From assembly GCA_973895155.1 (NCBI GenBank), contig OZ316891.1, forward strand, positions 25,295,899-25,359,898: a DNA stretch of 64,000 nt. The letters are read 5' to 3'. This DNA comes from Marsupella aquatica. Its lineage: Eukaryota > Plantae > Marchantiophyta. Positions 4,473 to 39,602 of this stretch are shown in pieces; the stretch's first letter is position 1; every line of letters starts with the position of its first letter. The notes under the pieces are model-generated. The model was not told the origin of the DNA. It ran no database searches and saw only the letters and a list, made by a program, of their open reading frames with translations. A program made the position numbers and the translations under genes.

Positions 4473-4679
4473 ATATCTCCTTGACGCATTTAGAGGGGCA
4501 CTGAAAAGGCGACTATAACTATTAACACACTGACGGACCAAACGAGAAGTGTGACTACACTTCTCATTTTGCACGCGGCGAAAAAAGTTTCTAAGGCAAA
4601 AAAGTCTTGGATACGGAATTAGTATTCCCACTAAAAACTAGTTTTTCGAATTGAAAAAATGGGAAAAATTGACACGAAT

Positions 4680-6114: not shown

Positions 6115-6951
6115 ATGGCAGTCACTGAGAACCCTGTCTTTACAAGGTTAGCGATGTCATTCGACAAAGAGAAGAAACAAATTCAACAAAAAAGTGGCCA
6201 AAGGGAATCCAGATTGCTTTTGGATGGATTTCCTGATGAGATTGTTGAAACGTTCATTTGGCCCATTTTGAAAGTTTGTTGTATAGAGGATGAGTTTGAT
6301 TCCTCCAAGAACCAAGCTGATGAAAGATTGATGCGATTAAAAACCATGGTGTGGCTTGGATGCACCTTCAAGAAATGGAATCAGCTCGTAATTTGTACAC
6401 GAGTCTGGGGTATTCTTAGACTAGCAAAAAGCCAGCTTGAGGAAGTAAATGAAATGCTGACAAGCATTCCCGATGGAAAACCCCTTCAAAATGTTCATAT
6501 TGAAGCTTTTGTTAGGATGGAAACAACAAATCTTCCTCCAATCGATTTCTTAGGTTTATTTTCAAGGTCTGACCTAAATTGATTTCAAGAAGACTGGCAC
6601 AATCTTGAGAAAGATGAGCAAGCGAGGCTCTTGGAAATGTATGGGGAAGCTTCTAGTCTGGTTTAGAGTCATCTTGAATGGGCTCTTTGTAAAGACTCTT
6701 TTTAAGAATATCAACTTAGTTTATTTTGTGGCACAATTCCGAATGAATAAAGAGTTTTGTGATTACCCTTGCATCAACCCGATTTGCTACGCGTAAAATC
6801 TATTTGGTTGAATACAAGGACTTGGGGATATGCCTTATCTCTAGTCCCATCAAGAGAAAAAAATATACATAGACATCCGGACTCCAACCCTACGCTTTTG
6901 GATACACATTATCGCCTGTGGAAATCTTATAGCCTGTGGATACGAAGGTGA
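6115..6951 (+). pseudogene. Degraded ORF with an F-box-like motif, possible cargo gene
   Basis: LLDGFPDEIVETFIWPIL...WLGCTFKKWNQLV resembles the F-box LPxEI...VCKxW pattern; broken into several ORFs. Confidence 0.35.
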
Positions 6952-7143
6952 TAAAGTATAAATAGGAGTGCCTGGTCAGAAAAATTACTCTCATTTCTGT
7001 TTCTTCTCAACTTTGTTTACCTTTGCGTTTTTCTTGGGCCGCAACATCTCTATAGCTTTTTGTATTTGCTCGAATCAAAACCAAAAACTAGGTAAAAACT
7101 GAAAAACTCTCCCCTCCTTGTTTGGTGAATTGTTGAATCCTGA

Positions 7144-10100
7144 TGTTAGATATTGCTCTAGTCTTGTAACTCTTGTGCTAACCACAGTTAGGCTAACTCG
7201 GGTTAGGACCTAGCTAAGGTTAGCGGTAGTGCTATTGTGCATATAGCCAGGGCTGATGCCAGACCCTGGTGGAACATAGGCTCATTGTTACGGAGCTAGT
7301 TGAGAGATAGGAAGAGCTTGTGCTGTGGATGCTTGGTATGGCCGGTCGGCCTAGAGTGCAGTAAAGCTCTTGTGTGTTCCCGTGGACGTAGCCTCATGTG
7401 GAGGTGAACCACGTATCTCTCTGTGTCAACTATTCTGCGTTGGATGGTTCATGGGCTTGCCGTTGCGAATGTCGTCTATGCTCAACAAGTGGTATCAGAG
7501 CAAGCCTGGGAGGTGACGTTGAGGTGATCAAATTTTTCGTGACGTGTTGGTGACGGTTTTTCCAGCGGTTAGAGTCGGTGGATTTCACGGAGTTCTGTCG
7601 CATGGAACTTGGAGGTGTTGGGCTCAACGGATAGATCGGGGCAAGGGCTTTCCGACGGTGCAAAGAAATCTCTGAACAAAGTTCGTGGTGCGGAGGAATT
7701 CATGTTTCCATCATTCTGGATTTTTTGTGATTCGTGTACGACGGTTTTCTTCGACGGTTCTTTTGGGGGGGAACTGAGATCGTTTTCTCGACGGTGTGAG
7801 CTTTGTGGTGCGCGAGGCGTCACAACCTTTAGCTCAAATCGTAGATCGGGCAAAGCTGATCGTTTCGGTAGCTGGATTGCTACCGAGTTGTTACCGAGTG
7901 CGACGTGACGAGTGAAGGAGGCGTTCAGGTTTTTTTTTTTTTCACAAGCTATGGAGCTTGTTCTCATCTGAACCGGGTTTCTCTTCGTGACGTCCGACTC
8001 GGTGGAAGAAATGCGAAGTGCTACGGCTCAACGATTTGCTCGCGGTGAGGCGGTTGTTTTGAGCCCGGGATTGGCACTTGATGCGGAGTGAAGGCGACGC
8101 GACGGAATTTTTTTTAATTCTGCTGGAGCAGTAGACTGCGCCGGTGCAATTCGGCAACATTTCCCGTCGGCGGCGTTCACTTTCCTCACTTAAAACAGCG
8201 GCGTTCAAGGTGTGTAAACGGCTTTTTTGTTTTAAAGTCCAATCTTGGCTTAGGTTAGGGCCACTTTTGGTGTGTATGCACACCCTCCCGGCCCTTGGTC
8301 CCCCATTGTTTCCCCTTGTACGCCCGACCCCCCCCCCCCGCACCTTGTTTTCCCCTCATCCTTCAGCTGCGGCGACGAGCTGTGCAACACCGGCCGGCAC
8401 TTTTTTGCGCGCTCGTACGCCCTCCGCCATACTGTGTCGGTCGCTACCGTGGCACCGCCCTGTCATCGTATGCCCAGCCCTTTGCGGCTCTACGCCGCTT
8501 GTACGCGGCTGTACCCTCGTCCCGCCCCGACGCCAGCCATACGCCCTTCGTACCCCCGGCCCTTTACGGGTTAGTTTAGGTTTTAAGGGGCTTCAAGCAC
8601 CCCCTTTAGTGCCCACTTTTAGCCTTTTTTCCCTCTCATTAGTTTGTCCCATGTGCCGGGACCTGCCGCCCTCCGTTTTAACCGCTTGGACAGGGGGAAT
8701 TGCCCCCTGTGAGACCTGTTGTACTATGTGAGAATATTCCCGAAAAATAGAGAGCTGTTTTTTGGCCGTCCGACAAAGATTCTGTCCGCCAAACGGTAAC
8801 TTTTTTGGTTCTTTTTCGGTGAGGACGTTGCCACTGGAGTTAGCAACGCGGCGCAACGATCACATCGCGATTCCGACGACGGGTTGTACTGGGTATTTTG
8901 GTTATTCTCTGAGGTGGTCAAAACGGGGGAGTTTCCCAAGGTTTTACCCACCCCGACCAAAATTTGAATAATTTTTCCGTCGAATTTTGATTTTGATTTC
9001 GGCTTTCAGTATTGGACTCCTAGCTTCATGGGCTACGCGGCGGTGTTGAGTTTTGAGTTTTATGAGAAGTTTCGAAAAAAGACATTTTTTTGTGATTGTT
9101 TCATATGAGTGACTCGGGGGATACTGGAAGAATTGGAGTCGGTGGAGCTTCAGGATCGCGACGGTCAAACAGTGAGTCTGAGGAGGAGCTGCTACCATTT
9201 GAGGAGGAACTTGTAACACCGGTACAATCACCGGTGCGACGTGCAGTGGAGGAAGCTGTACTACTACCAGAGCTGTCGGTAGTAGGGAAGAAGAGGGAGA
9301 TGGCTAGATTTGGAGGAGTGAAGTTTGAGGTGGAGAAGTACGATGGTCGTACTGATTACTTGCTCTGGGAGAAGCAAGTGAAGGGTGTTCTACGGGCCAT
9401 GGGCTTAGCTCATCTGCTTTCATCGCGAGAGCAGTATGATGGAGAGGAGGAGATTTCTTTGAGACAGTGGAGACAGGAGTAGGTGATTGCTGTCAATGCA
9501 GTGATTCTATATCTCAAGCCGCACATCATCAAGCAGCTGGATGATTATGCGGATTGCGCGTCACTGTTCAAGGCTCTAAGAGAGAAGTACTACCGAGAAG
9601 ATGCGTCAGACCGGCTGTACAAGAAGTCTCTCTTGATGAGCCTCAGACTCAAGGAAGGGAGCAAGATGCAGGATCAGCTAGATGAGTTTGACAGTCTAGC
9701 GGTTGATCTGTCAAACCTGGGAAAAGGAGTTGAAGATGAGGATAAGGCCTTGCTTTTGCTAAGCTCCTTACCGCCGTCATATCAGGGCTTGAAACAGGTG
9801 CTCTTGTACAAAGATCTGAAGTCCATTTCGTATAATGAGGTGGTAAGCTCTTTATTGTCTGATGATGCTCAGAAGAAGCTGGGTCAATCACAGACAACAT
9901 CTTCTTCTGGCATTGCGCTGAATGTGAAAAGGGGAAGAGCAGCGCAGCGCGCGAATGGACAGAACAGGTTTAGATCTACATCACGGGGGAGATCTAAATC
10001 CAGAGGGAAATCGCAAGAGAGGAAGCCTCTTGCATGTTGGAATTGTGGCAAGCCTGGCCACATGAAAAGGGATTGTCGAGTAAAGGTCCCTACTGCCTCT

Positions 10101-13100
10101 GCTAACGCGGCATCGAGCTCGCATGAGGTAGATTTACTCGATGATGATGACATATTGTGATGTCAAGGTTATGCTCTCAACGTAGTGTCAAATCCAGGTA
10201 GTGATGACTGGATTCTAGATAGTGCATGTACTTTTCACATTTGCTCTAGAAGAGATTGTTTCAGTTCTTACACGGTTTCCAACGGGTCAGTGTTGATAGG
10301 AAATGGAATCCCATGTCAAGTTGTTGGACTTGGATCTGTAAGATTTCAGATGTTTGATGGTGCTGTGAGAACATTGAGGAATGTGAGACATATTCCCAGC
10401 ATGATGAAAAATCTCATTTCACTTGGAGTTTTAGAGGCAAATGGCCATCAGTGGAGTTTTGCTAATGGTGTCCTTCAGGTTTCAACTGATACTAAAGTTG
10501 TATTGAAGGGAAAGAGACATTGCAATCTATACGTTTTGGAGGGCAGTGTAGTCTGTGATGAAGCCAATGTAACCTTATCTCATGAGGAGACGGCCCGGCT
10601 GTGGCACTTCCGTTTGGGCCACATGAGTGAAAAAGATTTGGTTATTCTTCAGAAGAAAGGATTACTTTCTAATTTGCAATCCTGTAAGTTGCAATTTTGT
10701 GAGCACTATGTGCTAGGGAAGCAGCACAGGAAACCCTTCGGAGTTGGAACTCACACCAGCAAGGAGGTACTTGAGTATGTACATAGTGATGTGTGGGGTC
10801 CAGCCCCTACTCCCTCACATTCTGGACGGTTATATATGTCACGTTCATAGACGATTACTCAAGGTATGTGTGGATATACTTTCTACACAATAAGTCTAAT
10901 GTTTTTGCCACTTTTAAGGAGTGGAAAGCCCAAGTTGAGAATCAGACTGGTAATAAGGTGAGATATCTTCGATTGGATAATGGCGGTGAATACAATTCCG
11001 GGGAATTTGGAACGTATTGTAAGGAGCAGGGGATTACCCGCCATCTCACAACAAGTTATACTCCTCAGCAGAATGGTGTTTCTGAGAGACTCAACCGAAC
11101 ACTATTGGACCGCTCGAGGAGTATGTTGAGTCAATCATGCTTACCACATGAGTTTTGGACTGAAGCTGTCAACACTGCAGCTTATTTGGTAAATTTTTCT
11201 CCATCCAGTTCTATTGGATTCAAGACGCCATTTGAAATGAGGTACGAGCGTCCAGCAGATTACTCACATCTGAGGATTTTTGGATGTGATGCTTATGTGC
11301 TTACACCTTCCCAGCTTCGATCCAAGTTGGAGTCCAAGTCGAAGAAGTGCATTTTCCTTGGTTATCAGAAAGGTGTGAAGGGTTATAGGTTATGGGATCC
11401 AGTAACCTGTAAGCTAATTGTCAGTAGAGATGTGTCCTTTAATGAATCCAGATCATCAAAGGAGGGGGAGAGTTCTCAGGACTCCCATACTGACAAGGGG
11501 AAATCTCCCATCCCGGACCGGGTTGAGGGGGAGATTAGTCATGATGCAGTTCATGACAGGAGAGATGGAGAAGCTCCGGGCTTGGAGCTGGTTCCTGTGA
11601 TGGAACAAGAGGAGCAGATTGTTGCTAGGGTACCTCAAATTCAACCAGCAGCAGCAGCAGATCAGCCTGAGTCATCTACTAGAAGAACTTCCAGTCATTC
11701 TACTAAAGCTCCTACCAGGTATGGTCAATGGGCAGACTCATCTAACCTGATGATGATGACATGGCTTTGATCTTGGAAGAAGGAGAGCCTTCTTCGTACA
11801 GTGAGGCTTGTGCTTCAGAGCAGAAGCATGAGTGGAATGCAGCAATGCAGAGGGAGTTGCAATCTTTGAGTGACAACAAGACATGGGAGCTGGTGGAGCT
11901 TCCAAGAGGTCAGCAAGTGATGGACAGCAAGTGGATTTACAAGTTGAAGGACAATCCTTCAGAGGGTGGAGATAAGATCTACAAGGCAAGGCTTGTTGCC
12001 AAGGGGTTCACTCAGGAGAAAGGAGTGGACTACAATGAGGTCTTTTCACCGGTGGCTAAGTATTCCACAATTCGGATCTTGTGTCAGCTTGTTGTATTTT
12101 TTGGTCTGGTGATGGATCAGATGGATGTTGTTACTGCCTTTCTCTATGGCAACTTGGAAGAGTTGATCTTCATGAGACAGCCACTAGGCTTTATGAAGAA
12201 GGGCCAAGAGAACTTAGTTTGCAGATTGCTCAAGTCCTTGTATGGATTGAAGCAGTCTCCCAGACAGTGGAACAAGCGGTTTGATGATTTCATGCTTGCT
12301 CAAGGTTTTACAAGGATGGTGTATGATCCTTGTGTGTATACGAAATCAGTCAAGAATGATGTATTTGGTTTCATCATTCTGGTGATCTATGTGGATGACA
12401 TGCTGATTGTGGCTAAAGATCAATCTGAGGTTGACAGTCTCAAGGCGAAATTGAGTGTTGAATTCAGGATGAAGGATCTTGGTAAGGCCAAGAGGATCTT
12501 AGGGATGGAGATTTTTAGGAACTCTGAGACTGGACAGTTGTGCTTGAGTCAAGGCCAGTATGCGAGGAAAGTACTTGCACGATTCAACATGGAGAACTGT
12601 AAGCCAGTGAGTATTCCTTTAGCTTCACATTTCAAGTTATCATCGGCTTTCTCTCCTACGGATGCTGTGGAGAAAGGTCTGATGGCTAAAATTCCTTATG
12701 AGAAGGTAGTTGGGAGTCTGATGTATTTGATGACTTGTACAAGGCTTGACTTGGCCCTAGCGATGGGCAAGGTTAGCAGATTCATGTCAAATCCATACAC
12801 TGGGAAGCTGTGAAGTGGATTCTTAGGTATGTGAGGGGAACACAGGACTATGGATTACTATTTGATAACAGATCAAATAGAACGTTAGTTGGCTATGTAG
12901 ATTCTGACTATGGACGCTGTTTGGATACAAGGAGATCTACAACTGGGTTTGTATACACTCTTGGAGGAGGATGTATCAGTTGGAAATCTACCTTGCATAA
13001 GTGTATATCTCAGTCTACTACAGAAGCCGAGTATGTTGCAGCAGCAGAAGCAGCAAAGGAAGCAATTTGGTTGGATAAGTTGATCGCGGAGATGGGTTTA

Positions 13101-13900
13101 GAGCATGGAAAAATGACTCTAAACTGTGATAGTCAGAGTGCTCTTCACTTGGCTGCTAACCAGGTGATGGATAGCAGGGTGAAGCACATTGATATCAGGT
13201 ACCATTTTATCAGGCAAGCAGTGGCTGATAAAACTTTTGAGCTAGTCAAGATTGATGGAAAGCTCAATCCCGCTGATGCTTTTACCAAAGTGATTCCTTT
13301 GGAGAGTCTCTCAAGACACCGTGCTACTTTGCAGGTTTTGCAGTTGTAGTGCAAGTAGAGTTATTTAACAATGTGTGACTATTTGTATATGGATTACTCA
13401 TTCCTGTTAGGCTACGGCTTAGTTCTAGTTAACCCTTAGTTAACCCTTGTGGTTTTTAGGGGGAGACCTGGTTTGGTGATTGTCTAGAACTTCCCGCTGA
13501 GGATTCCATATGGTAGTATTTAGTCCAGTCCCCAAGACAAGAGTCAAGGGGGAGTTTGTTAGATATTGCTCTAGTCTTGTAACTCTTGTGCTAACCACAG
13601 TTAGGCTAACTTGGGTTAGGACCTAGCTAAGGTTAGCGGTAGTGCTATTGTGCATATAGCCAGGGCTGATGCCAGACCCTAGTGGAACATAGGCTCATTG
13701 TTACGGAGCTAGTTGAGAGATAGGAAGAGCTTGTGCTGTGGATGCTTGGTATGGCCGGTCGGCCTAGAGTGCAGTAAAGCTCTTGTGTGTTCCCGTGGAC
13801 GTAGCCTCATGTGGAGGTGAACCACGTATCTCTCTGTGTCGACTATTCTGCGTTGGATGGTTCATGGGCTTGCCATTGCGAATGTCGTCTATGCTCAACA
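7144..13900 (+). mobile_element. Full-length Ty1/copia LTR retrotransposon (Tork/Tnt1-like)
   Basis: 344-bp LTRs (7144-7487, 13557-13900; TG...CA; 4 transitions seen), TSD CCTGA, PBS TGGTATCAGAGC (tRNA-iMet) 7490-7501, PPT AAGGGGGAG 13546-13554. Confidence 0.97.
9105..13349 (+). pseudogene. Copia gag-pol (Gag, zinc knuckle, PR, INT, RT, RNase H) with stops and frameshifts
   Basis: CWNCGKPGHMKRDC, WILDSACTFH, LWHFRLGH, VHSDVWGP, TPQQNGVSER, YGLKQSPRQW, YVDDML, GYVDSD, KHIDIRYHF. Confidence 0.95.
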
Positions 13901-13905
13901 CCTGA

Positions 13906-14270
13906 GAGGGATACGCCGTATCCCCATTTGTATTCAACTCTATTATTTGGCCTTCTTTTCAATATTGAATACGAGATGGGATACCGCGTATCCCATCTTG
14001 CATTGAACACCCTCTTCCATCCAAACCTCCTCGCTCTTTCTTGACTTTGAATACGAACTGGGATACCGCGTATCCCATTTCGCATTCAACTCTCTCTTTT
14101 TCGTTAATTGCATCAGACTCTGGACATTTGTTGTTGTTGGATGCGAAGTGGGATACCGCGTATCCCATTTCACATTCAACTCCCTCTTTTTCATTCTTTG
14201 CATCAGACTTGGCAATTGTTGATGTTGGATGCAAAGTGGGATACCGCGTATTCCATCTCACATTCAACTA
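13906..14270. repeat. Palindromic repeat family A, cluster 2
   Basis: Cores near 13908, 13977, 14059, 14149 and 14237; the left arm of the first unit lies across the copia at 7131-7143. Confidence 0.9.
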
Positions 14271-15339
14271 CTTTTGGTCTGGTTCTAAGTGTGTCAATCT
14301 TTTTCAGGATCATGTCAAACAAATCAAAGTCGTCTGGTTTGACCCAGTCTTCATGGACATCCATCATCGATGAGATTTGGAAGAAAGACCTTTACACGGA
14401 GGAGAAACTCGTGAGGAATAGGTGGTACTTCAGGGATGCTCGGGCGATGGATATTCACAGAGCCTATGAAGGTCCAGCGGTGTGGTTGGTTATAGTTAAG
14501 GGTAAAGACCATTGCCATTATGGATTAGTCGTGGACACTGGGGAGGCGGATATCACCGACTCAAAAACAAAACAGCTGAAGAAAATTCCAATGTACCTTT
14601 GCATTCTTCTGAACAAAGCCTTCACTGTAGTTGTCCTCAACTATTAGAAACTTGATCAGGTCTCGATGAACACATTTCCTGATGACCCGATCTGCCAGCT
14701 AATTTCGGAAGTGCCAGAGATTGAGGACTTTTCTTATTGGTGTTTGAAATTTGTCTTGAAGTCTTGGAGGGTTGTTGAGGATTTTATGAAGGTAGTGTAT
14801 AGGTCCGTTGTTGGAGCCGACTTTGGCGTCAAAGAGTGGCCTTTGAAGTTGAAAGTGACAAAGCCTACCGATCCGGCTTCAAAGTCAGGGGAGATGTCTG
14901 GAACACCCTTGACAAAGGAGAAATCTGCCACAATTTCTTTTAAGGAACCGGCAAAGAGGAAGCTTGCAGATTAACTCTCTGGGGAAGGTTCTAAAGTAGC
15001 GGTGTCAGGAGAAGCTATTGTCAAGAAAAAATTGGATCGACGTGACATCCAGAAGCGGGCGCCTTTGCACCAGGAAGTGTTGTCTCATCTTTGGTCCCAC
15101 CAATTTCACAGACACCTTCTCAGATTCCTTCAACTTCGTCAGGTGGGCTTTCTTTATCATCTAGGGGAGCTGTTAAAGAAAAGAAAGACGATTCAACAGA
15201 TATCACCACAGCTTTGTAGCGGGAAGAGACACTTGTGGTTTGTGAAGAAGTGTCTCGGTTGATGGAGACTAAGCGAGTTCAAAAGACAACAGTTATTCTG
15301 AAAACAACTAACCTGCTTCTTGTTGACAATATTGATGAC

Positions 15340-15720
15340 GAGAACTCAACGTTGGTTTGAACAATTGATTAGTTGCATGTGGAGAACATCAAGACTTTGA
15401 TGAAAATGAATCCAACAAATTTCACGACGTCATTGGTCTTGTTTGTGATCCCCAAAGACTGCCCAACAGTGACAGACTGGGACCCAGAAAAGGCAACAAG
15501 CTGGAGATATCGAGTGATTGGAAGTAATCACGGTGCTCGGGCTAAGAGAGAATTGTATCAGGCTTATGGGAGAGAGATCTTCAATGAACTCCAAGCTTGG
15601 GTGTATGCTGGTCTCACAAGGGAGGACATTCAGAAACTTAGCATCCAACATAATATTGATCAGGAGTACAGGAAAAAAATGAACAACATTGATCAAATCC
15701 GAACAATGCATAAGATTTTC
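15340..15720 (+). CDS. ParB/Sulfiredoxin-like domain (part of gene A)
   Basis: HVENIKTLMKMNP...LVLFV...YRVIGSNHGARAKREL...AWVYAGLT...LSIQHN fits the ParB/Srx (Y)x(V/I)(I/V)xGxHRxxA pattern. Confidence 0.6.
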
Positions 15721-16319
15721 CTTGCCAGAGGAATGGCAAAAACCAAGGAGACTAGAGAAGCGTGTGCGATGGAGGTTTGCCTCGACGGGTTTTTTCCGGG
15801 GGACGCCACAAGCCTGAAGAAGCATGAGCCTCTCTTCCAAATTGCATTTAGGTTGGGTAAAGTGTGGGAACTCCAAGACCAGATCTTTGAGATGTGGAAC
15901 AAGTTGGAGATCAAAGGGCAGAATAAGCAGAAGTCACCGATCAAGAAACTCAAGAAAGGAAAGGGAAAAGTGCAATCGATTCCAAAAGCTTTGAATAAGC
16001 TTGCAGGGGGCCTTACCTTGACACCTTGGAGAGCAATCTAGGGAATTGAACACGACCAATTTTTGGAGTCCCTTCTTCTCCGAGTGAAGGACCGGATGAT
16101 CTCTTTGGAGTAGATGGCAAAAGAAGCCAAGAGTTACAAGAAACTTGTGAAAATTAGCAAGCTTTTTGTTCAGTTGTTAGGGCAAAAAGATTGGGCGACT
16201 TGCAAACGAATGTTTCCAAAAGAAACAGAATCTGCCGAGCTTGAAAGATGGAGTGGGAAATTGTCCGATGTGGTATGTTCTCCCGTTCCACTGATTGGAC
16301 TTTTCTATTTGTTTCGCCA

Positions 16320-16670
16320 TGTTTGGATGTTTCAATGCAGTTTTTTCTTGGTTGAATGCAAAGTGGGATACGCGGTATCCCATCTTGTATTCACTTGTGG
16401 TTATTTGACGTTTGTGATGTTTCAATGTGGTTTTTGCTTGGTTGAATTCAAAGTGGGATACGCGGTATCCCATCTCGTATTCAATGTGGTTATTTGACGT
16501 TTGTGATGTTTCAATGTGGTTTTTGCTTGGTCGAATGCGAAGTGGGATACGGGGTATCCCATCTCGGATTCACTTGTGGTTATTTGACGGTGGTGATGTT
16601 TGACTGTGGTTTTTGCTTGGTTGAATACAAACTAGGATACGGAGTATCCCATGTCGCATTCGTCGTCCAG
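16320..16670. repeat. Palindromic repeat family A, cluster 3, inside a predicted intron of gene A
   Basis: Four tandem units of about 90 bp, cores near 16364, 16454, 16543 and 16633. Confidence 0.9.
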
Positions 16671-16970
16671 ATTCGATTGTTTGAATTCCTAAATGGTTAT
16701 CTCCCATTATCTTTCCTCCAGATTCTTTTAACAAGTTTGCATTTGCAGTTGAAAGCTTTTTCGAAGAAGAAGAACAAGGATGCAATTGGTGCCAATGCGG
16801 TTGAGAAGCCTACGGAGGAGCTGACTTTGAGTGTTATTCCCCCGAGGTTTAAGAATTACGTTCAAGAAGCAATTGAGAACTACAACCGTCGTCGTGGGAT
16901 TGAAACGATTGAAGCAGAGTCGAGTGACCATTGATGGAAAAACGCTGATGGAAATTTTATCAGATATACA

Positions 16971-17640
16971 TTGCATTGTGGAGATGTCAGGGCGCTGGAT
17001 AAGTTTGTAGAGAAAAGGAATTACACACTTGCAATTGTAGACATTCCTTATGGATTCAATGCGCCTGGCTCTGAAAATGATGAGGTCTCATTTTCAGAGA
17101 GTGATATTGTGGTTATGGTGAAGTGTTTTGCCAAGGTGACAAGTTCAAAGATGTGGAGGTTTGTTGTGATTCACTCTTTGCAGCAAACTTGGTCTGTGAT
17201 GAATGCTCTTGGAAAAACTTGTGACGCAGGTGTAGAGGCTGGAATTTGGGAGAAGCCAAATGTACATGCTCATCCTTTCGGGAATCGATTGGCTTGGGCT
17301 TTTGAAAACTGGTCAATCGAATATTATCACGAGAGTGGGATTAGGACCAGAGACATGTACAATTTTGAACATGATGAGAAAAGGGTAAACATCATAAAAG
17401 TCCCTTGTGTTACAAAGAAATGTGTAACACCATTGGGAGAAATAGTGAACCCTTACCAGAAACCGATAGCTTTAGCAGATTGGTTTGTTCAACATTTTAG
17501 TGAAGCAGGGGATTGGGTTGCTGATTTATGTGCGGGGAGTGGTTTGACCTCATGCGCTGCCTTGTTAGGGAAACGTCCGGTGACAACCATGGAGCTCAGT
17601 GCAAGCTAGGTGGATTGTATCCGGACCCGACTTGTCACAC
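16971..17640 (+). CDS. Beta-class amino DNA methyltransferase domain (part of gene A)
   Basis: HCGD; motif IV LAIVDIPYG (DPPY-like); then NPYQKPIALADWFV and SAM motif I SEAGDWVADLCAGSGLTSCAA; IV-before-I order. Confidence 0.85.
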
Positions 17641-18017
17641 TTGATGAATCGTGAGACTTGAATGATGAAGCAACCGAGGAGGGTACAGGACCTGTGAGCT
17701 TTGAGGTTCAACCACCTATTGGTGGTACTACGAGCACCCTCACCACTGGAACTTGCATTATTACAACCGCGGAGGAGAATGACAATGATGAGGATGAAGA
17801 GGATGAAGTGGAACATGAAGCTCCGGCACTTGATCTTGGCTCATTCCTTGAGGTGTAGACTTAAGTTTGATTAGTTCTCTCATGTTGTATGTATTGATCC
17901 AAACTTGTGAAATATTGAGGAAGATTATGATTGGACTATGTTCTTATTTCACAAAGTAATGTCTTTGCAGGAACCAAAGGAGGATTTTGTATTAAAACAT
18001 GTTCTGCATAGATTCTC

Positions 18018-18655
18018 GGCCTCATTCACAATTGGGTGTACCTCGCAGGAACCACTTTCAGGACTCAAAAATATGCTTTTTTAGTGAAAAATAACTTTCG
18101 TAACATGAAAAAAGGTTCATCATGATTTTATCTCAAGACATTTAAGTCTAATTTTTTCACAAGAATATTTTACATGGTGTAACCTACCTCACCATGTAGA
18201 TACATCAAGTTTTCAACTGTTTTAAGGGATCCTGTTATTGATGGCCCTAAATAAGCCAAAATTACTGATTATTTTTGTCCTGTACATAAAGGTTTAGTGT
18301 GTGTCACTATTTAAGTTTTGAAATATAAGATTATGCTATTAGTATGCATGCTTTGGTAAAATTTCATTGTCTAAAATGCATTTTTTAGAGTCCTTTTGAG
18401 TCTTGAAATGATGTGACCCGTTGCGTGACAAGTCCTTTTATCAATCTTTGAAGGACATATAAGGAAAGCTTCAAAGTCTCAAATGCTAGATAGTTTAATG
18501 AATGTTACCAACCTATAGGATGTTTATTAAGTATAGTACATCAAATTTTCTATATCATCTCATTACACCCTAAAAATGATATCCTAAAGCATAATAAACT
18601 ATGGTCACTTTTGAGTGTGACGTTCCTTTTGGGTCCTCCAATTGTGAATGAGGCC
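18018..18655. mobile_element. Non-autonomous TIR element (MITE), 638 bp
   Basis: 18-bp perfect TIR GGCCTCATTCACAATTGG / CCAATTGTGAATGAGGCC, flanked by TCTC on both sides; excision restores the Ulp1 frame. Confidence 0.85.
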
Positions 18656-18659
18656 TCTC

Positions 18660-19536
18660 ACACAATCCTTCTAGTGGATTTCTTTTGGACAATAAAACAT
18701 TGAGCCAACTTGAACCCGGTCAATATTTGGGTGATGAAATAATGGAATTTTACCCCCCGTTTTACCCGCAATTAATAACCGAGGAACATGGAGATCTGGC
18801 TCCCTCAGTAAACACATTATCCTCTTTTTTTTACCCTTGGCTTGTTTCAAGGATTGAAACAGAACCAGCTGAGACCTTGTTGGAATCAATTCAAAAGATG
18901 CAGAATTATTACAAGCCACCATTTTCCCAAATTGAGGTCATTCTCATGCCAATTCACATGAGCATGCACTGGAGTCTGGTTGTAATATGTTTGGATCGGA
19001 TTGAATCTTCGATCAAAATATATCATCTAGACTCTCTCGCTGGTCTACACTCAACCCATGTAATTGGATCAATACTGAGCAGGTACGTATATATTCTATT
19101 ACATTTTTTCAATTTGAATTTATTTATGTGGTACATAAATATAAACACTTTGGACTAAGAACTTTGAATGATAATTTGCAGATATTTTACAATGGAATGG
19201 GAACTATTTTTGGGAAAAGTTCCAATGGGAGTTGTGGAGATATACAATCCAATGGTAAGGATTTGAAAAGGTATTTCAACTTTTATTTAGTTCAATTATT
19301 AAACACTTTGGACTAACTTTAAGATTCTTTCTCAGGTAGCTCAACAACCAAACAATTCAGATTGTGGTCTATTTGTTCTTCAAAATATGGACAAAATCAG
19401 AATTCAATGGCATATTACACAATGCCTTGATGCACAGTCTTTATTTACTGAAAAATGGTACAATTGTAAAAGAGCATGTAACCTTATAAAATTCATTCGA
19501 GATCAAATTCTAAAATTGATGCATGTACCTGTTTAA
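18660..19536 (+). CDS. Ulp1/C48 SUMO-like protease domain (exons to 19082, 19182-19254, 19336-19536)
   Basis: YLGDEIMEFY, SSFFY, PIHMSMHWSL, HLDSL, QQPNNSDCGLFVL: H-D-C triad and oxyanion Q intact; GT-AG introns in frame. Confidence 0.9.
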
Positions 19537-19590
19537 GGACATCAATCTCAATCCTCTGAGTGTGCAGAACCTCTCTAATATAGCAGACTC

Positions 19591-22500
19591 TGTTTCATTC
19601 AATGTATTCACCAACAATGATCACGCTTCTCTTAGGAGTGTAAGAATATATGGGTTACATTGATGGGCAGTTATGTAACTGCCCTAACTCCTAATTGTCA
19701 CTTAGAGTGTAATCTACATCTTATAACACTCCCCCTTGGTTCTTTGAAGTGATTAGAAAAAGAACCACTCTATGGAGATTGTAACTCTAAGTGTTAATTA
19801 TTTGATCCTTATAAGTAGTATGGCCTCATTAAAACTTTCCCACTTTCTTCTGGAAGAAAGAGTGCCACTACTGTACAAGTAATAAGGTCATCGAAATACA
19901 TTTAGGGTAATCTAATGAGAATTTTATAGTGAAAGTTTCGTGCAGTTTCGAGAGTTTTAGTTCTAGCTGTGAGTTTGTAGTAGAGTAGATAGACGACGTA
20001 TCCCGATACCATGTGTGTGATCGTGGTGAACTGAAGGTGGGAGGGGCTTAGTGAAGAGATCTGCGCGATTATCTTTACTTGCAATCCAATGAACTTGAAT
20101 CTGATCGCCATGCTGTTCGTGAGTGTAGAAAAATTTGGGGGCAATATGCTTTATCCGATCTCATTTGATAAAGCCTTGTGTAACTTGATCGATGCAAGGG
20201 CGATTGTCCTCGTAGATAGTTGTTGGAGCGTTGAGAAGTGGACGACCTGTATGCTGATTAATGTGATCAATGAGTTGTCTGAGCCAGATGCATTCATGAC
20301 TTGCTTCGTAAAGGGCAATGATTTCTGCATGGTTCGAGGACGTTGTCGTGAGGGTCTGTTTGGAGCTTCGCCAAGATATCGCGGTGCTGCCTTGGAGAAA
20401 TACATACCCGGTTTGCGATTTAGCGTCATCCGGGTCCGAAAGGTATCCAGCATCAGCAAATCCGATGAGTTCAGAAGGAGCATCGTTGGGAAAGAACAAT
20501 CCCAAGTCAAGTGTGCCCTGTATGTATCGAAAAATTTGCTTTACGCCATTCCAGTGTCTTATTGTTGGTTGCGAACTATGACGAGCAAGAAGGTTAACAG
20601 CGAATGAAATGTCAGGGCGTGTGTGATTCGCTAAGTACATGAGCGCACCAATTGCTGAAAGATAGGGTTTTTCTGCTCCAAGTATCTGCTCTGTTTCTGT
20701 GCGTTTCTTGAATGTATCTCGATTCGGGTCCAGAGATCTCAGTTCCATTGGAGTGCTCACTGGATGAGCTTTATCCATGTTGAACTGCTTTACAATCTTT
20801 CTTGCATAAGTCGCTTGATTAATAAGTATGCCGCCCTGCACATAGTCAAATTGAAGTCCAAGACAGTACTTGGGTTCTCCTAGATCTCGCATTTGAAATG
20901 TTGTTTTCAATGTTGCCATTGTTTCTTTAACTATTGTAGGTGTACCGAAGATGTTAATATCGTCTACATAAATAGCGACGATTATGTAATCTGTGTCATG
21001 TTGTTTAAGAAAAAGACAGGGAGCAATGTCGTTATTGACAAAGTTCAGAGCTAGCATCTCTGCCTTAAATCTTTTATACCAGGTTCGGCCACTTTGTTTG
21101 AGCCCATATAGGGATCGCAGTACTTGGACTGCCAATTGTTTTGTCTATATAGCAGATCTGGGAAGTCGACTTCTCGCTTGATGTGCACTCGGCACCTGTA
21201 ATTCATGAAGAACTGAAGGTTCGTTTTCATGTGCATGCTTTAGAAGGTACTCTATAGGAGTTTTCCTTGTTAACCCTGATTGTAGATCAGGGTTTGTATT
21301 ATGTTTATTCTCCCCCTGAATTCGAAATGTCATTCGTGTGATTAACTCAGGAGGAGCCTTCATGTAGATTGTAGTGTCCAATATGCCATAAAGGTAGGCT
21401 GTGATAACATCTAGTATGTTTAGTGTCAATTTGTGCGTAAGTGCAAACGCTATCATGTATCTATAAGTTATCAAATCCATCACGGGTGAGTAAGTAAGGT
21501 CAAAGTCACGTCCTGGGATTTGCGTATAGCCTTTAGCAACCAGTCGTGCTTTGTACCGAATTATCTCTCCTTGAGCGTTTCTTTTCCGTGTGAAAATGAA
21601 TTTATATCCGATAAGTGATGTGTGTAGAGGGGCAGGAATGACCGGACCAAAGACTTCTCGTTGAATTAATGAGTCCAATTCAGAATTAAGTGCTATCTCC
21701 CACTGGGGCCAATCAGGCCGCTGCTGTGCCTCGTGGACTGACAGGGGATCTGGGGTGTCATTGGTGATATCCTGAGATATATCGAATGCAAATATATCAT
21801 CTATAATTGTATCCTTTCGATGCCATAATCGACCAGTATGCATATAATTGATGGATATTTCTTGATTTTCTTCTGGCTGAGTGAGAGAGTGGGTAGATGG
21901 TACCGGTGGAGGTGGCACATTCGTTGGGTTAGCTGGTGGTCGTCGTTGGCGAGGTTGGCTGTCTCTAGAGCCCAGTGGTCGACCTCGTTTTGCTCTTGGG
22001 GCAGCTTCACTGGCAAGTTGGTCTGGTATTAGTATTCGGGCTGGAGTATTGGCCGCCTCTATGTGTGAACGGGTTACTTCAGCTGCATCATTAAAAGCGT
22101 CCGGGAGCTTTTCCAGCATCTGATGGAGATGTAATATGCGTCTGACTTCTGCATCAGCTTGTCTGGTACGTGGATCAAGTCCCACCGGTAGGATGGTCTG
22201 CCATTGTAATAATTGTTTTCTGCCATTCTCATCGGATGGATGTGTAGTTAGTTTCGGAAATTCGTCTTCGAAAAAGGTACAGTCAAGGAATCTGGCCTTG
22301 AACACATCTGTTGTGGATGGTTCCAGGAACCGAATAATGGAGGGTGAGTCAAAACCAACATAAATCCCTCGTTGGCGCTGGGGGCCCATCTTGGTGCGTT
22401 TTGGGCCTAGGATAGGGACAAGGACTAAACACCCAAACGTCCGCAAGTGAGAAATGTTAGGTGGTATACCAAATGCAAGGTAATGCGGAGTATGGGTATT

Positions 22501-24956
22501 AAATGCGGAAGGTCTATATTTTAGGAGAGCAGCTGCATGCAATATTGCATGTCCCCATGCTGTAGGAGGAAGTTGTGTTTGCATGAGGAGTGGCCGAGCT
22601 ATCATTTGTAGTCTTTTAATGAGAGATTCTGCTATGCCGTTCTGAAAATGAACGTGCGGTACCGAATATTGGGTTTCTATGCCGGCAGTCTCACAAAAAT
22701 CATCGAATGTTTTCGACGTGAACTCCCCGGCATTATCAACCCTGAGTGTCTTTATTGGATTGTCAGGGAACTGTAGCTTTAACTTGAGGATGTGTGATAA
22801 AATCCGTGGGAATACTAGGTTCCGGGTCGAGATCAGTGAAACTTGGGACCATTTTGATGAAGCATCAATAATGGCCAAGTAAAACCGGAATGGACCAAAT
22901 GGCGGGTCAATCGGGCCACATACGTCAGCGTGAAGCCTTTCGAGGAATTTAGGAATGGAGTGAATTGTTTTAGATGTGGCTGGTCTGGTGATTAACTTTC
23001 CCTGTGAACACGCAAGACAGGGGCTCTTCAGAGATGATGGGCGCACCCCTTGGGGTATGCCTATCGTATCCCGGATTATATTATGGTACATGTTGGTACC
23101 AGGGTGGCCTAGCCGATTGTGCCAGCGCTCTGTGGGAGTTGGAGGAACTATTTCTACATGTAATGCGTGTATGGTGGTGATGTATAACCCGGGAGGGTGG
23201 ATAGGCAAGGTTTCACAGATTTTCATTCCAGGTGGAGAATGGTCAATAATGTGTAGGACTTCACCCTCATTGGTCTTGCTTGTATATATGTGAAAGTTGT
23301 TAGCTCTTATGTCTTGGAAACTAATTAAATTTCGTGTGGCTTTAGGTGCGTATATTGCCGAGGAGATGTTGATTACTGTGCCCTGGGGGAAACAAACTGA
23401 TGCGGGGCCGTGCCCTTCCTCAATATGATTCTGTCCTGTGATGGTAGTTATGGCTCTGTGAGAAGCTATAATTGTTCGAAAAAAATGTCGATTTCTTAGG
23501 ATGGAGTGGGAGGTCCCACTATCTACTATGCAATTAGATGGTGTTAATTTGCCTTGTGATTGTGCATCCATGTGAGCAACGTGGGTTTCTGGAAGGGGTG
23601 TATCATGTGTATAAGCATGTATGTCTTCAGGAATTTCCATAAAATTGCCTTGTGCATCTTCTGTTTGCCTGTTTATACTTTCTTTATAGAGCTTGACCAA
23701 GTGTGCAGGAGCCCGACATTCTTTTTGTAAATGTCCTTTTGTACCGCATCGGAAACAAGAGGGTGTAATAAACTTATCTCTTGGTTGTGCTTGGTAGCCT
23801 CTTCCTCGATTCCGTCCGCCACCTCCGCGTTGATTCCAAGTGGGGTCTCGCTGGAATTCTTGGGATTGTTGTCGGAAGCTCCCACTGCCTCTGTATCCTT
23901 GGTAAGTTCCTCTTCCAAATGCACGTCCTCGGCTCCCCCTGAAGTTGCCACGTCCGCGCCCCCGGAATCTTGAGGCCATAAGATGAGTTTCTGGTCTGGC
24001 TGGAGGGGCTGCACTCCCTGGTGGTCTTGTTTTAGCATTGTTGAGCAGTATTATCTGATGCTTCTCAGCGAGGAGCATATGTGATATCAATTGAGAATAC
24101 CGCGTGAAATTCATGTTTCGATATTGAGAGGCTAGAACTATGTTAGTTACATGAAAAGTGGACAGAGTCTTTTCGATCTGCTCTTCATCATCCACTGGAT
24201 TACCGCAGACAGCTAATTGGGAGGTAATTCGGAATAGTTCGTTGTTATAACTCGCAATTGTGCTGTAATCTTGTACTCGCAGGTTTATCCAATCGTGGCG
24301 GGCTGTCGCGAGTGATATGGTCCGCATATGATCGAAGCGTAATTGTAGTTCGTCCCATAGGACCCTTGGGTTGTAGTGATTGAGATATTGAGTCTTAAGC
24401 GGTTCAGCAAGATGGTGCCTGATTAGTATCAAGGCCTGAGCCTTCTGTTGTAATGTAGTACCTGCATCGGTTAAGGTTGTGTCTTGCAGGTCTTTAGATG
24501 CTAGATGTGCCTCCACATCTAAAGACCAAGACAAGTAATTTGCGCCATCGATCGCGAGAGCTTTGAAATGTAATTTCTCCATGATTGATCAATGCTGCAA
24601 TTGGAAGTTCCGATGCTGGCTAGCTTGTAATAAGGTTCTTTGATAATGCAATCGTTTATGGCTAAGGAGATGGTATCGTTCAAAACCTGATGGATTTCTC
24701 TCACCGAGTTCCAAGAATCAGTTCCAATCGAGGAATAGTGCTGCTGAAGTTTAACTGCGCGTCATCTGCCTCTATCTAAAAAAAAATTTGTCACACACAT
24801 CAGCTCGTGCTGATAACGTGTTTCATTCAATGTATTCACCAACAATGATCACGCTTCTCTTAGGAGTGTAAGAATATATGGGTTACATTGATGGGCAGTT
24901 ATGTAACTGCCCTAACTCCTAATTGTCACTTAGAGTGTAATCTACATCTTATAACA
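19591..24956 (-). mobile_element. Full-length Ty1/copia, Bianca lineage
   Basis: 138-bp LTRs (19591-19728, 24819-24956) that read as identical, TSD GACTC, PBS CGTTATCAGCACG typical of Bianca, PPT CAAGGGGGAG. Confidence 0.95.
19963..24582 (-). pseudogene. Bianca gag-pol, single frame with two premature stops (near 21145 and 20161)
   Basis: GANYLSWSLD, CFRCGTKGHLQKEC, VDSGTSH, WHNRLGHP, HADVCGP, YGLKQSGRTWY, YVDD, GFADAGY, KHIAPKFF. Confidence 0.95.
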
Positions 24957-26975
24957 GACTCTATAATTTTTTTAGTTTTTGCTGCTATTTGATTAGTACT
25001 TAAAAACACAAAGTTGTATGTATACACCGTTGTTGATGATAAAAGTAGTTCATCTTGGAGAAGTCGATTAGATATATTATCTTTCTCTGGAAAATATTTC
25101 CCATCAATAGCAGACTCAGCACTTGCCTCAGTTGTGTACCATGTGATTTTGATTCTCTCAGGAATGTCTGCAGTTCTTGTCAAAATCTTTGACACCTTTG
25201 CCATCCAAAACAACTTGCCTTCTGGATCCTTGTGGGCCGCTACACATATCATGGACCACTTATTGTTAACTTCCATATCTCTGAAATCTCCAAATTCAGC
25301 TTGCTTTCGTCAAGGTCCGGAGTACATAATTCTCTGTGGTCCAGCAACTTTGTCAACCAAAGTTGGATCAACACCTTCTTCAACAAGTTCATTTCTCACC
25401 CTTGGAAGTAGTTGTGCACCTTGATTTTGTTGCGGCCAAATCCACTCAAATAACCACTCACCTTCCTCTAGGTGGTTTTTGATAATATCTTTTTGTTTCT
25501 CTAAAAAACTCATCCACCAAAGTTTATCTTCATTGTCAAAGTAATTGAAACCTTCCTGGATAGCTTTTTCATATTTCACCAGAGTAGTTAATGCACCATT
25601 TGTATTGGAAGAATCATGGACATCATCCCTCTCAACACCTTTTGCTGACTTTAGTGACATTTGTGCAGCAACCCACATTCTTGAAGTTGGAATGTAATTG
25701 ACGAACGTCACTGCATCTCCCCAATCCTGGGTCGTGGAAAGATGTTTCCCGTGAAATGTTGTCTCTTCGTTTCCATCCTCCATGACTCGTTTGAATCTGA
25801 ATTGCCTTTGAAAAGTTATGAGATTGAGATCTCTCAAGACTCTACCTAAGACTCCCTTCTCATTTGGCTGGTTGTTTTCATTGACAAATTTTCAAAAATC
25901 GGCTACTTCATCCACAAATATGATCAAAGCTTCAGGTGAATATGCTCGTTGAATAATATCCTCAAGAGTCTCCAAGCAAAATGCTTTGTGCTTGTTTAAC
26001 CTAGACAAAAATTTACTAAACATCTGATCTATCTGGTCATGTGTATGACCGACCAACAAGAAACCCACTTTAATCTTGTCAAAAATCTTCAAATCTACTA
26101 ACATGTGAAGATAAGCCATCAAGAATTTATTCTTGTTTTCCCGAGTGGTATTATCTAATTGAAGATATAACACTCTTGGTAATGTCCCATCCCATGTATT
26201 CAATACATTTTGAATAACATGTATGGTCAAGTTTGCATCATTATGGATATTGGGATATGTCAAAAATACTTTTGCTACAAGGTTCCTGTTGAAGATGAGA
26301 CAACCTACAACATGTATTGGAATGAAATACTTTTCATCCATGTTCTTTGGACAACAAAAAAATGTGGTAGCTCTGTTTTCTTTTGATCCATACCATCTAT
26401 ACAAATACCCAAATACTTGTTGGGCTCATCATAGCATTTTTTACAATGCTTGGCTAACTTCATCCTTTCCAATGATTGTACTTTTTGATGCTCCATAAGG
26501 GCATTGATATACTTTCCTGAAATGATACAATAGCAATGAATTAAAAATCAATAACTAAGGATAAACTTTGACAAATATTGAATTACATGTCATCAAATTA
26601 AAGTTGAAGGTTATAGTTAGTGGAACTTACTTTTATCCTCTTCAGTTGTTGCTTTGTCCCGAAGAGCCTTGAATTCAGTACAAGGACCACAAGTAGAAAA
26701 TCGACTCCTTTTCGGAATTCGTACATTTGGAAAAAAAAAATTCCAAACACGCAAAAAATAAGAATATGTAACTTGTTGTTCTTCTCGCAACATTGTTTCA
26801 ACTTCAAAGATTCCATGTATTTCTTGCTTTGTCCAATTGTCTGGCAAGTGATGAATCTCTTTATGGGAAAGACTATCCATATTTTTTTGGAAAAAATCTT
26901 TCAACCATTCCACCAAGTTTAGAAATGAAGGTGAGTCTTCCTTACAAAAGGTATCTCGTTCAATCCTTGTAAACA
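24957..26975 (-). pseudogene. DUF7869/Sola-like DDD transposase copy 2 (5' end lost, 3' tip displaced by Bianca)
   Basis: RIPKRSRFSTCGPC, GICIDGMDQKKT, LYLQLDNTTRENKN, FLLVGHTHDQIDQMFS; in-frame GT-AG intron 26630-26517; C-terminal region homologous to copy 1. Confidence 0.8.
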
Positions 26976-39593: not shown

Positions 39594-39602
39594 GTACATT
39601 TA

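What the first reader, a model, noticed from the sequence alone, without database searches (positions are those of the whole stretch)
14312..19536. Intron-containing gene for a prokaryote-type beta-class amino-methyltransferase fused to ParB-like and Ulp1 domains
Seen: DIPY motif IV, QKP and DLCAGSG motif I in beta order. The same frame continues through two stops into an acidic linker. A phase-0 intron plus MITE excision then joins it to an intact Ulp1 triad. Known: eukaryotic 4mC writers of bacterial origin are rare (bdelloid N4CMT, Marchantia DN4MT1). Inference: a mobile source of 4mC or 6mA writers in plants. This copy is a pseudogene, and the 17853 donor (GTGTAG) is weak.
Basis: partly seen in the sequence, partly recalled or inferred. 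Interest (0 to 1): 0.82.

Follow-up and report, generated by a model that had tools for sequence, protein, structure and literature searches.

The report
Plant transposon carrying a ParB-guided methyltransferase
This is a broken copy of a plant jumping-gene family whose cargo gene joins a bacterial-type DNA-binding fold (ParB) to a bacterial-type DNA methyltransferase; in intact relatives the protein likely binds the element's own palindromic repeats and likely marks them with methyl-adenine, which would be a new way for transposons to tag their own copies.

Summary
The beta-class amino-methyltransferase is real (Pfam PF01555 above cut-off; fold like CcrM/M.RsrI), and so is its spliced fusion to a ParB/Noc-like module with NTPase-fold and HTH domains. 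The Ulp1 fusion is not supported as the normal product. In 6 of 6 close loci the MTase frame ends at a TAG in register with 17856-58. In the 4 that extend far enough, a convergent DUF7869 (Sola-like) transposase follows within 320-470 bp, with no room for Ulp1. The Ulp1 gene is real (intact triad once a MITE is removed) but is extra cargo here. The gene sits in a multi-copy ~22.6-kb DNA element (4524 to about 27099, two Copia insertions). Its noncoding parts carry 14 palindromes TGGGATAC-N3-GTATCCCA; relatives carry other, family-specific palindromes in the same kinds of places. Motif IV is D-x-P-Y-like (D first in 96 of 100 homologues, S in 0), so 6mA is likelier than 4mC. Homologues occur in Chara, Adiantum and Ginkgo. 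This copy is dead (10 stops, 1 frameshift); relatives have open frames. Best reading: a parS-like, VANC-like self-marking system. Enzyme activity and DNA binding are untested.

The parts
4524..27099 (.). Multi-copy DNA element carrying the gene; left end firm, right end tentative; no terminal inverted repeat found
   Evidence: 9 and 18 contigs (runs X2, X4) start at 4524 with unlike flanks (agreement 0.45, 0.43). The first 10 letters of the empty-site continuation occur once in the window, at 27100. Best end-to-end inverted match is only 12 bp.
4687..5401 (.). Palindrome array 1, 5 copies of TGGGATAC-N3-GTATCCCA near the left end
5620..6582 (+). Unassigned cargo ORFs (117 and 201 codons stop to stop), no Pfam hit
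7144..13900 (+). Copia-type LTR retrotransposon inserted into the element (344-bp LTRs 98.8% alike, CCTGA duplication)
   Evidence: class read from the ORF translations by recall
13907..14255 (.). Palindrome array 2, 5 copies just upstream of the ATG
14312..15261 (+). 5' part of the long gene: unassigned N-terminal domain and low-complexity linker; stops at 14645, 14972, 15217; frameshift near 15040
   Evidence: tblastn to L003 exon 1, 25% identity, E 7e-8
15262..16272 (+). ParB/Noc-like module (ParB/sulfiredoxin fold with GSNH/GGNH motif, then HTH-type DNA-binding domain); stops at 15358, 15370, 16039, 16111
   Evidence: 45-47% identity to L003, L004, L006. Model of the L006 exon, pLDDT 84.9: all 9 Foldseek hits at E<=1e-3 are Noc/ParB; VIA Z 10.8 PadC, 9.3 KorB. 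HTH_ParB E 8e-4, below cut-off.
16273..16748 (+). Phase-0 intron holding palindrome array 3 (4 copies)
   Evidence: homologue P0165 runs through the same junction in one frame
16749..17858 (+). Beta-class amino-methyltransferase exon with acidic tail; DIPY, NPYQKP, DLCAGSG; premature stops 16932, 17607, 17652; natural stop TAG 17856-58
17859..17970 (+). 112-bp spacer or 3' part of an intron; canonical acceptor at 17970; in-frame ATGs at 17938 and 17959
17971..19536 (+). Ulp1/C48 protease gene (exons 17971-18017 + 18660-19082, 19182-19254, 19336-19536); extra cargo, its link to the MTase unresolved
18018..18655 (.). MITE with ~18-bp terminal inverted repeats (GGCCTCATTCACAATTGG) and TCTC duplication, inserted in the Ulp1 exon
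19591..24956 (-). Second Copia-type LTR retrotransposon (138-bp LTRs identical, GACTC duplication), inserted in the last codons of the transposase
24957..26977 (-). DUF7869 transposase-like gene, convergent with the MTase gene (IDGMDQ, QLDNTTRENKN, GHTHDQIDQ motifs), broken by stops
   Evidence: PF25273 E 3.4e-45; 45-68% identity to L002, L004, L006, L007

Best explanation
This is a dead copy of the cargo gene of a plant DUF7869 DNA transposon, a spliced ParB/Noc-like module joined to a beta-class amino-methyltransferase, whose intact relatives likely bind the element's own palindromic repeats and likely write N6-methyladenine on their own copies. Shown: gene anatomy, both folds, linkage to the transposase, palindrome arrays outside exons that differ between families, many insertion sites. 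Inferred: (1) the HTH domain dimerises on the palindromes as ParB does on parS (about 0.75); (2) intact copies are catalytically active (about 0.65); (3) the target is adenine rather than cytosine (about 0.7 if active); (4) the mark keeps cognate copies expressed or mobile against host 5mC silencing, as VANC does by another chemistry (about 0.5). Ulp1 is accessory cargo in this lineage, most likely a separate or alternative product.
For: Linkage: 4 of 6 close loci reach a convergent DUF7869 transposase 319-472 bp after the MTase stop; the other 2 contigs end 302-357 bp after it. Mobility: diverse flanks at 4524, and 733-2102 contigs per run on a 2.9-kb stretch. Fusion: P0011, P0037, P0089, P0104 and P0121 hold both modules in one ORF; P0165 spans the junction. 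ParB fold with DNA-binding domain. ParB and Noc bind palindromes as dimers with evolvable specificity (PMC7383237). Palindromes: 68 copies in 7 elements, 67 outside my approximate exon limits, one motif type per element, shuffle means 0-0.6. Same layout as VANC targets (PMC5735166). Adenine: D first in 96 of 100 homologues covering motif IV, S in 0; DPPY in distant branches; family profile matches 6mA enzymes at 1e-14 to 1e-16 and PvuII/N4CMT at 1e-4. All 6 close MTase frames are open.
Against: No biochemical or expression data. The first proline of DPPY is replaced (DIPY 34, DAPY 9, DVPY 9, DPPY 9 of 100), which could mean lost or changed activity. The fold search does not separate 6mA from 4mC enzymes (N4CMT rank 6, E 4.5e-12, against CcrM 1.3e-14). 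The ParB motif is GGNH-G/S/T and lacks the arginine recalled as needed for CTP binding, so clamp sliding is unproven. No TIR or TSD was established. The six close loci come from one metagenome assembly, and only three motif types were seen, too few to show co-evolution. Retrotransposon DAMs gave no 6mA gain in E. coli (bioRxiv 2026.05.21.726589). No variant row appeared at stop 17607, so many close copies may share that defect.
Confidence: 0.5

Rival explanations
1. One reading: one ParB-MTase-Ulp1 polypeptide made by splicing 17852 to 17971, analogous to the VANC-Ulp1 (KIU) fusions of VANDAL elements.
For: Acceptor 17970 is canonical and in phase 0. The Ulp1 frame is intact without the MITE, and the spacer and exon start are shared by other copies (record X1-4 spans 17643-18017). 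KIU is a precedent (PMC13317346).
Against: TAG 17856-58 lies in register with the stop of 6 of 6 loci and of P0001, P0002, P0004, P0005 and P0012. Weak donor, 3 of 7. 0 of 62 homologues carry PF02902. In-frame ATGs at 17938 and 17959 and the strong phase-0 donor at 16273 offer other routes to Ulp1.
Confidence: 0.2
2. The MTase fold is a catalytically dead scaffold or base-flipping reader; the ParB module alone targets the element.
For: Motif IV is variable (DIPY, DLPR, DIPH, DFPC). DIRS MTases are described as likely inactive (PMC4738411). A second ParB-like element in the window has no detectable MTase.
Against: N-x-x-QKP, the D-x-x-x-G-x-G SAM motif and D..PY are kept across Chara, Ginkgo and unnamed distant homologues. 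The model has pLDDT 91.5 and a full beta-class fold.
Confidence: 0.2
3. The palindromes are binding sites for the DUF7869 transposase (subterminal-type repeats), not for the ParB module.
For: One array lies within 200-900 bp of the left end. Subterminal transposase sites are common in DNA transposons (recalled).
Against: Most copies are internal: upstream of and inside the introns of the ParB-MTase gene and in its 3' region. Two-fold symmetry fits a ParB/Noc dimer.
Confidence: 0.2
4. The enzyme writes N4-methylcytosine and is the mobile source or a sister of Marchantia DN4MT1.
For: Same beta-class fold as N4CMT and PvuII. Motif IV does not fix the target absolutely (recalled).
Against: 0 of 100 homologues have S at motif IV. 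N4CMT has SPPY and MpDN4MT1 has TSPPY; MpDN4MT1 is described as lacking extra domains. Profile matches to 4mC enzymes are ten orders weaker.
Confidence: 0.12
5. Bacterial or phage contamination, or a recent one-off insertion.
For: Domains are prokaryote-type; PHROG DNA-methyltransferase hits to 5e-14 for the L002 MTase.
Against: GT-AG introns, nested LTR elements and a MITE. Named homologues in Chara, Adiantum and Ginkgo. 0 of 78 candidate stretches in GTDB genomes encode a relative; 1 weak hit of 39 in viral contigs.
Confidence: 0.02

Closest known systems
Beta-class N6-adenine MTases CcrM, M.RsrI, M.MboIIA, M1.HpyAVI, M.BceJIV
   Same: Motif IV before motif I, QKP, fold
   Different: 15-19% identity; D-I/V/A/F-P-Y in place of DPPY; spliced eukaryotic gene fused behind a ParB/Noc-like module and carried by a transposon
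Bdelloid N4CMT and Marchantia DN4MT1
   Same: Prokaryote-derived beta-class amino-MTases in eukaryotes
   Different: They have SPPY and write 4mC as host genes (chromodomain fusion, or no extra domain). This family has D-x-P-Y, ParB, and is transposon cargo. Orthology could not be tested.
ParB/Noc/KorB with parS/NBS palindromes
   Same: N-terminal fold plus HTH-type domain; clustered two-fold symmetric sites
   Different: Canonical arginine motif altered (recalled); no ParA; fused to an MTase; in a plant nuclear element; binding untested
VANDAL/VANC and KIU (Arabidopsis MULEs)
   Same: Accessory gene, family-specific motif arrays in introns and upstream regions, optional Ulp1, poorly defined TIRs
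   Different: No DUF1985/DUF287 or MULE transposase hit; VANC removes 5mC, whereas this protein has a methyl-writer fold
Transposon-borne DNA modifiers: DAM-DIRS/DAM-LTR, DNMT-retrotransposons, TET-DNA transposons
   Same: TEs carrying DNA-modifying enzymes
   Different: Those DAMs are NPP-motif enzymes in retrotransposons; the text read has no mention of ParB or land plants, and one general mention of DNA transposons. Here a beta-class MTase with its own targeting module sits in a DNA transposon.
Iyer et al. 2016 eukaryotic N6A-MTase clades (chlorophyte-type Dam with ParB-HTH; clade 6 from phage ParB-Tls loci)
   Same: ParB-associated amino-MTases that entered eukaryotes
   Different: Described as group-2 (M.TaqI-like) or unpermuted enzymes in chlorophytes, chytrids and haptophytes; no permuted streptophyte transposon clade in the passages read; supplement not read
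Sola DNA transposons
   Same: Putative acidic-triad transposase; Sola reported from moss. The DUF7869-Sola link is recalled, not tested.
   Different: No TIR or 4-bp TSD established; about 10 kb without nested elements; cargo genes

Membership tests
Beta-class amino-MTase (PF01555) | Motif IV precedes motif I; Pfam cut-off; Rossmann-like permuted fold | tested here: met
N4-cytosine MTase (N4CMT/DN4MT1 type) | SPPY motif IV | tested here: not met
   DIPY here; S first in 0 of 100 homologues covering the motif
N4-cytosine MTase (N4CMT/DN4MT1 type) | Orthology with DN4MT1 in a tree | not testable with these tools
   No tool returned DN4MT1 or N4CMT as a usable sequence
Beta-class N6-adenine DNA MTase | DPPY-type motif IV | tested here: inconclusive
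   D first in 96 of 100, exact DPPY/DPPW in 10 of 100; window DIPY
Beta-class N6-adenine DNA MTase | Methyl transfer to adenine in DNA | not testable with these tools
   needs an assay
ParB/Noc CTP clamps | ParB/sulfiredoxin N-terminal fold | tested here: met
   L006 orthologue model: VIA Z 10.8, rmsd 2.7, 98 aligned to PadC; Noc/ParB top in Foldseek
ParB/Noc CTP clamps | HTH DNA-binding domain after the N-terminal fold | tested here: met
   Foldseek alignments of 283-310 columns span both domains; HTH_ParB E 8e-4 in 5 of 33 members, below cut-off; DBD-only Z 4.2-5.3 is weak alone
ParB/Noc CTP clamps | GxxR CTP-binding motif | tested here: inconclusive
   GGNH-G/T/S-x-x-A in the family, GSNHG here; canonical motif recalled
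ParB/Noc CTP clamps | Specific binding to a palindromic site | not testable with these tools
   candidate sites found
Sola DNA transposons | DDD transposase | tested here: inconclusive
   DUF7869 with three conserved acidic motifs; no Sola profile available
Sola DNA transposons | Terminal inverted repeats and 4-bp TSD | tested here: inconclusive
   No TIR between 4524 and 27099, but the right end is tentative
VANDAL/VANC | MULE transposase and VANC domains (DUF1985, DUF287) | tested here: not met
   Pfam gives DUF7869 and PF01555, no such families
VANDAL/VANC | Family-specific motif arrays in noncoding regions | tested here: met
   67 of 68 palindromes outside exons, one motif type per element
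Ulp1/C48 protease | His-Asp-Cys triad with Gln, PF02902 | tested here: met
MTase-Ulp1 fusion (KIU-like) | One spliced reading frame through 17852/17971 | tested here: inconclusive
   Not found in any relative; weak donor; no transcript data

The most novel reading that the evidence does not exclude
A streptophyte-wide group of DNA transposons uses a bacterial ParB/parS-like system: a ParB clamp loads on family-specific palindromes in the element's own introns and ends and delivers a beta-class MTase that writes 6mA (or 4mC) as a self mark. This would be an unrecognised, sequence-targeted source of amino-methylation in plant genomes and a reprogrammable methyl writer.
Probability: 0.35. Interest if true: 0.9.

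Novelty: new variant of a known kind. Interest (0 to 1): 0.72.

Why it matters
6mA is thought to have been lost from multicellular lineages (bioRxiv 2026.05.21.726589), and few transposon counter-silencing systems are known in plants. A transposon family from Chara to ferns and Ginkgo that carries its own palindrome-targeted amino-methyltransferase predicts where to look for real 6mA or 4mC in plant DNA: on young copies, near the arrays. It also gives matched pairs of protein and candidate site (three motif types so far) that can be tested in vitro, and would bring ParB/parS logic into the eukaryotic nucleus.

Tried and rejected
No whole genome is held for the window. No RNA holder listed, so expression and splicing were not tested. 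A 'longer' search with the MTase gave 1 protein of 478 candidates, and with the Ulp1 exon 0 of 341; both are weak negatives. The local phmmer test for Ulp1 is discarded: the second query was out of frame, so the control was void; the Pfam scans (62 of the 151 MTase homologues, the longest) are used instead. The exon check had a coordinate slip, corrected. The L004 ParB rows were out of frame and are ignored. GTDB scan: 0 of 78 candidates; viral scan: 1 weak generic MTase of 39; both are pattern-limited. The protein Atlas gave no answer, so the transposase fold was not checked. No TIR was found. The second ParB-like element's 42914-43270 exon did not match the MTase profile (probability 0.3; no hit). 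The tree is the quick version, 53 of 157 rows kept (rows under 75% coverage dropped), midpoint-rooted, without DN4MT1 or N4CMT; it shows grouping only, not a donor. Earlier scan findings: none. Literature searches that did not show this system. The original Sola paper was not held, and Repbase and the journal version of the Marchantia paper could not be searched. No complex prediction was run.


Full report
1. Setting. The window is repeat-rich eukaryotic DNA with LTR and LINE elements (classes read from translations by recall). No genome is held and the host was not identified. Named homologues of the gene come from Chara braunii, Ginkgo biloba and Adiantum nelumboides, so a plant host is inferred.

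2. The methyltransferase. Frame 16935-17606 holds VDIPY, NPYQKP and DLCAGSG in beta order and passes Pfam PF01555 (29.3 bits, cut-off 26.7). phmmer found 233 clusters at E<=1e-3, of which 150 were listed. A model of the intact orthologue in L002 has pLDDT 91.5. Its best Foldseek matches are CcrM (1.3e-14) and M.BceJIV, then N4CMT (4.5e-12), M.RsrI and PvuII, so the fold does not tell adenine from cytosine. Sequence does lean one way. Of 151 homologues, 100 cover motif IV: 96 start with D, none with S; DIPY 34, DAPY 9, DVPY 9, DPPY 9. In a quick tree (53 of 157 rows) DPPY rows lie outside the group that holds Chara, Ginkgo and the window; the window sits in a 10-row clade with support 100. A family profile matches 6mA enzymes at 1e-14 to 1e-16 and PvuII/N4CMT at 1e-4. 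N4CMT is defined by SPPY against DPPY for bacterial 6mA enzymes (PMC8885841, passages), and MpDN4MT1 has TSPPY (bioRxiv 2021.02.12.428880, main text part 1). Adenine is therefore the likelier target. The lost first proline leaves activity open.

3. The ParB fusion is real. The exon 15262-16272 is 45-47% identical to exons in L003, L004 and L006. The L006 exon folds at pLDDT 84.9. All 9 Foldseek hits at E<=1e-3 are Noc or ParB, aligned over both the N-terminal and the DNA-binding domain. VIA-align ranks PadC (Z 10.8, rmsd 2.7, 98 aligned) and KorB (9.3, rmsd 10.4, 137 aligned) first. Pfam HTH_ParB hits 5 of 33 members, best E 8e-4, below cut-off. Five homologues carry both modules in a single ORF, and P0165 reads through the junction that intron 16273-16748 predicts (whether it is from RNA or an intronless copy is not known). 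The family motif is GGNH-G/T/S, which lacks the arginine that I recall as needed for CTP binding.

4. The Ulp1 fusion is doubtful. A metagenome scan gave 9 relatives among 249 candidates, 6 of them close (61-65%; all from one assembly). All 6 MTase frames are open and end at TAG after a D-x-x-x-x-L-type tail, in register with DLGSFLEV-TAG at 17856-58; P0001, P0002, P0004, P0005 and P0012 end likewise. In L002, L004, L006 and L007 a DUF7869 gene on the opposite strand ends 319-472 bp later, leaving no room for Ulp1; L003 and L005 end too soon to tell. None of the 62 longest homologues has PF02902. The proposed donor scores 3 of 7 on my simple consensus count, against 5, 6 and 5 for donors 16273, 19083 and 19255. 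Against this: acceptor 17970 is canonical and in phase, the Ulp1 frame is intact (247 codons, triad present), the MITE-free form exists in other copies (3 of 4 runs), and VANC-Ulp1 fusions are a precedent (PMC13317346, passages). Ulp1 could come from ATG 17959, from exon skipping 16272 to 17971, or from the weak donor. This cannot be decided without transcripts.

5. The element. Contigs of two runs begin at 4524 with unrelated flanks (9 and 18 contigs), which marks a left end used at many sites. The start of the empty-site continuation occurs once in the window, at 27100, just beyond the transposase 5' end, a tentative right end. Two Copia-type elements with 5-bp duplications and a MITE are nested inside. 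Without them the element is about 10 kb. It carries unassigned ORFs, the ParB-MTase gene, Ulp1 and the DUF7869 gene (E 3.4e-45). No TIR was found. Sola elements have a DDD transposase, TIRs and 4-bp TSDs (PMC10741241, passages), so membership stays open; the DUF7869-Sola link is my recall.

6. Palindromes. TGGGATAC-N3-GTATCCCA occurs 14 times (up to 2 mismatches), all inside the element and outside exons: left end, upstream of the ATG, and in the intron; 0 in 5 shuffles. L002-L005 and L007 carry GCGAGAC-N2-GTCTCGC (6, 12, 8, 5, 3 copies) and L006 carries CCGAT-N6-ATCGG (20 copies), upstream, in introns and 3' of the gene. No element holds another's motif; 67 of 68 copies lie outside my approximate exon limits; shuffle means are 0-0.6. 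The motifs were chosen from these same sequences, so the shuffles show enrichment, not function. ParB and Noc bind palindromes as dimers with switchable specificity (PMC7383237, abstract and passages). VANC targets form family-specific tandem arrays in introns and upstream regions (PMC5735166, abstract and section 9).

7. State of this copy. Ten premature stops and one frameshift. Four stops face Q or R in L006, as C-to-T decay would give, and CpG is lower here than in the loci (0.61 against 0.79-0.83). TGA 17652 is private: other copies read TGG in all 4 runs. TAG 17607 shows no variant row at the 20% cut, though one diverged loose end has CAG; many close copies may be defective. This is unexplained.

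8. Mechanism. Shown: anatomy, folds, linkage, arrays, many insertion sites. Inferred: the HTH domain binds the family palindromes, the tethered MTase writes 6mA nearby, and the mark protects or activates cognate copies; Ulp1 may add de-SUMOylation in some lineages. Joint confidence 0.5. A caution from a parallel case: retrotransposon DAMs gave no 6mA gain in E. coli.

9. What is known. TE-borne DNA modifiers are a known kind: DAMs in DIRS and LTR elements (bioRxiv 2026.05.21.726589, part 1 of 5 and passages; supplements closed), DNMTs in retrotransposons (PMC5890265, search listing only), TETs in fungal DNA transposons (PMC12730594, passages). Iyer et al. list ParB-linked MTases of other classes and hosts (PMC4738411, passages and section 8; supplement not read and could hold this clade). 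PMC5751038 and PMC12973397 were seen as passages on Sola only. Ten literature searches and two look-ups of earlier findings showed no description of a ParB-beta-MTase on a plant DNA transposon. Subscription papers and Repbase were not covered.

10. Verdict. Observation partly confirmed; interpretation partly supported. New variant of a known kind, interest 0.72. The copy is dead, but the family is real, wide and testable, and the ParB/palindrome architecture is more surprising than the Ulp1 fusion first proposed.

Noticed in passing
window 27800-46050: A second, different element: ParB-like DGNHR exon (30011-30727; hhalign to the family probability 26, E 7e-4), its own palindromes (CTCGG..CCGAG arrays near 27880-29150, 41850-42030, 43880-44400, 45820-46050), an Ulp1 domain (44854-45678, E 1.5e-20) and a Gypsy-type insertion 32063-41496. 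No MTase detected. Suggests a wider class of ParB-plus-palindrome elements.
   Followed up: partly
window 225-1893 (- strand): Another DUF7869 transposase fragment, 65% DNA identity to the element's own, interrupted upstream by retrotransposon pieces.
   Followed up: partly
window 6115-6582: Cargo ORF with an LLDGFPDEIVETFIWPIL...LGCTFKKWNQL stretch that resembles an F-box by eye (recalled); no Pfam hit.
   Followed up: partly
window 17607-17609: Premature TAG with no variant row among close copies, unlike the private TGA at 17652; a defective master copy may have spread.
   Followed up: partly
window 13907-14268 and 16364-16664; L004, L005: Palindrome spacing is about 88-90 bp in the window and about 45 bp in L004 and L005 introns.
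   Followed up: no
L008, L009, L010: Distant MTase relatives (29-34%) with introns inside the MTase domain, so intron positions vary across the family.
   Followed up: no
P0006 (Chara braunii GBG86584.1): Annotated protein holds two tandem ParB-MTase units.
   Followed up: no
window 46273-51818 (- strand), 52672-52828, 53795-54002: A LINE-like element (DUF4283 hit), a 56-bp inverted repeat and a 26-bp tandem array.
   Followed up: no
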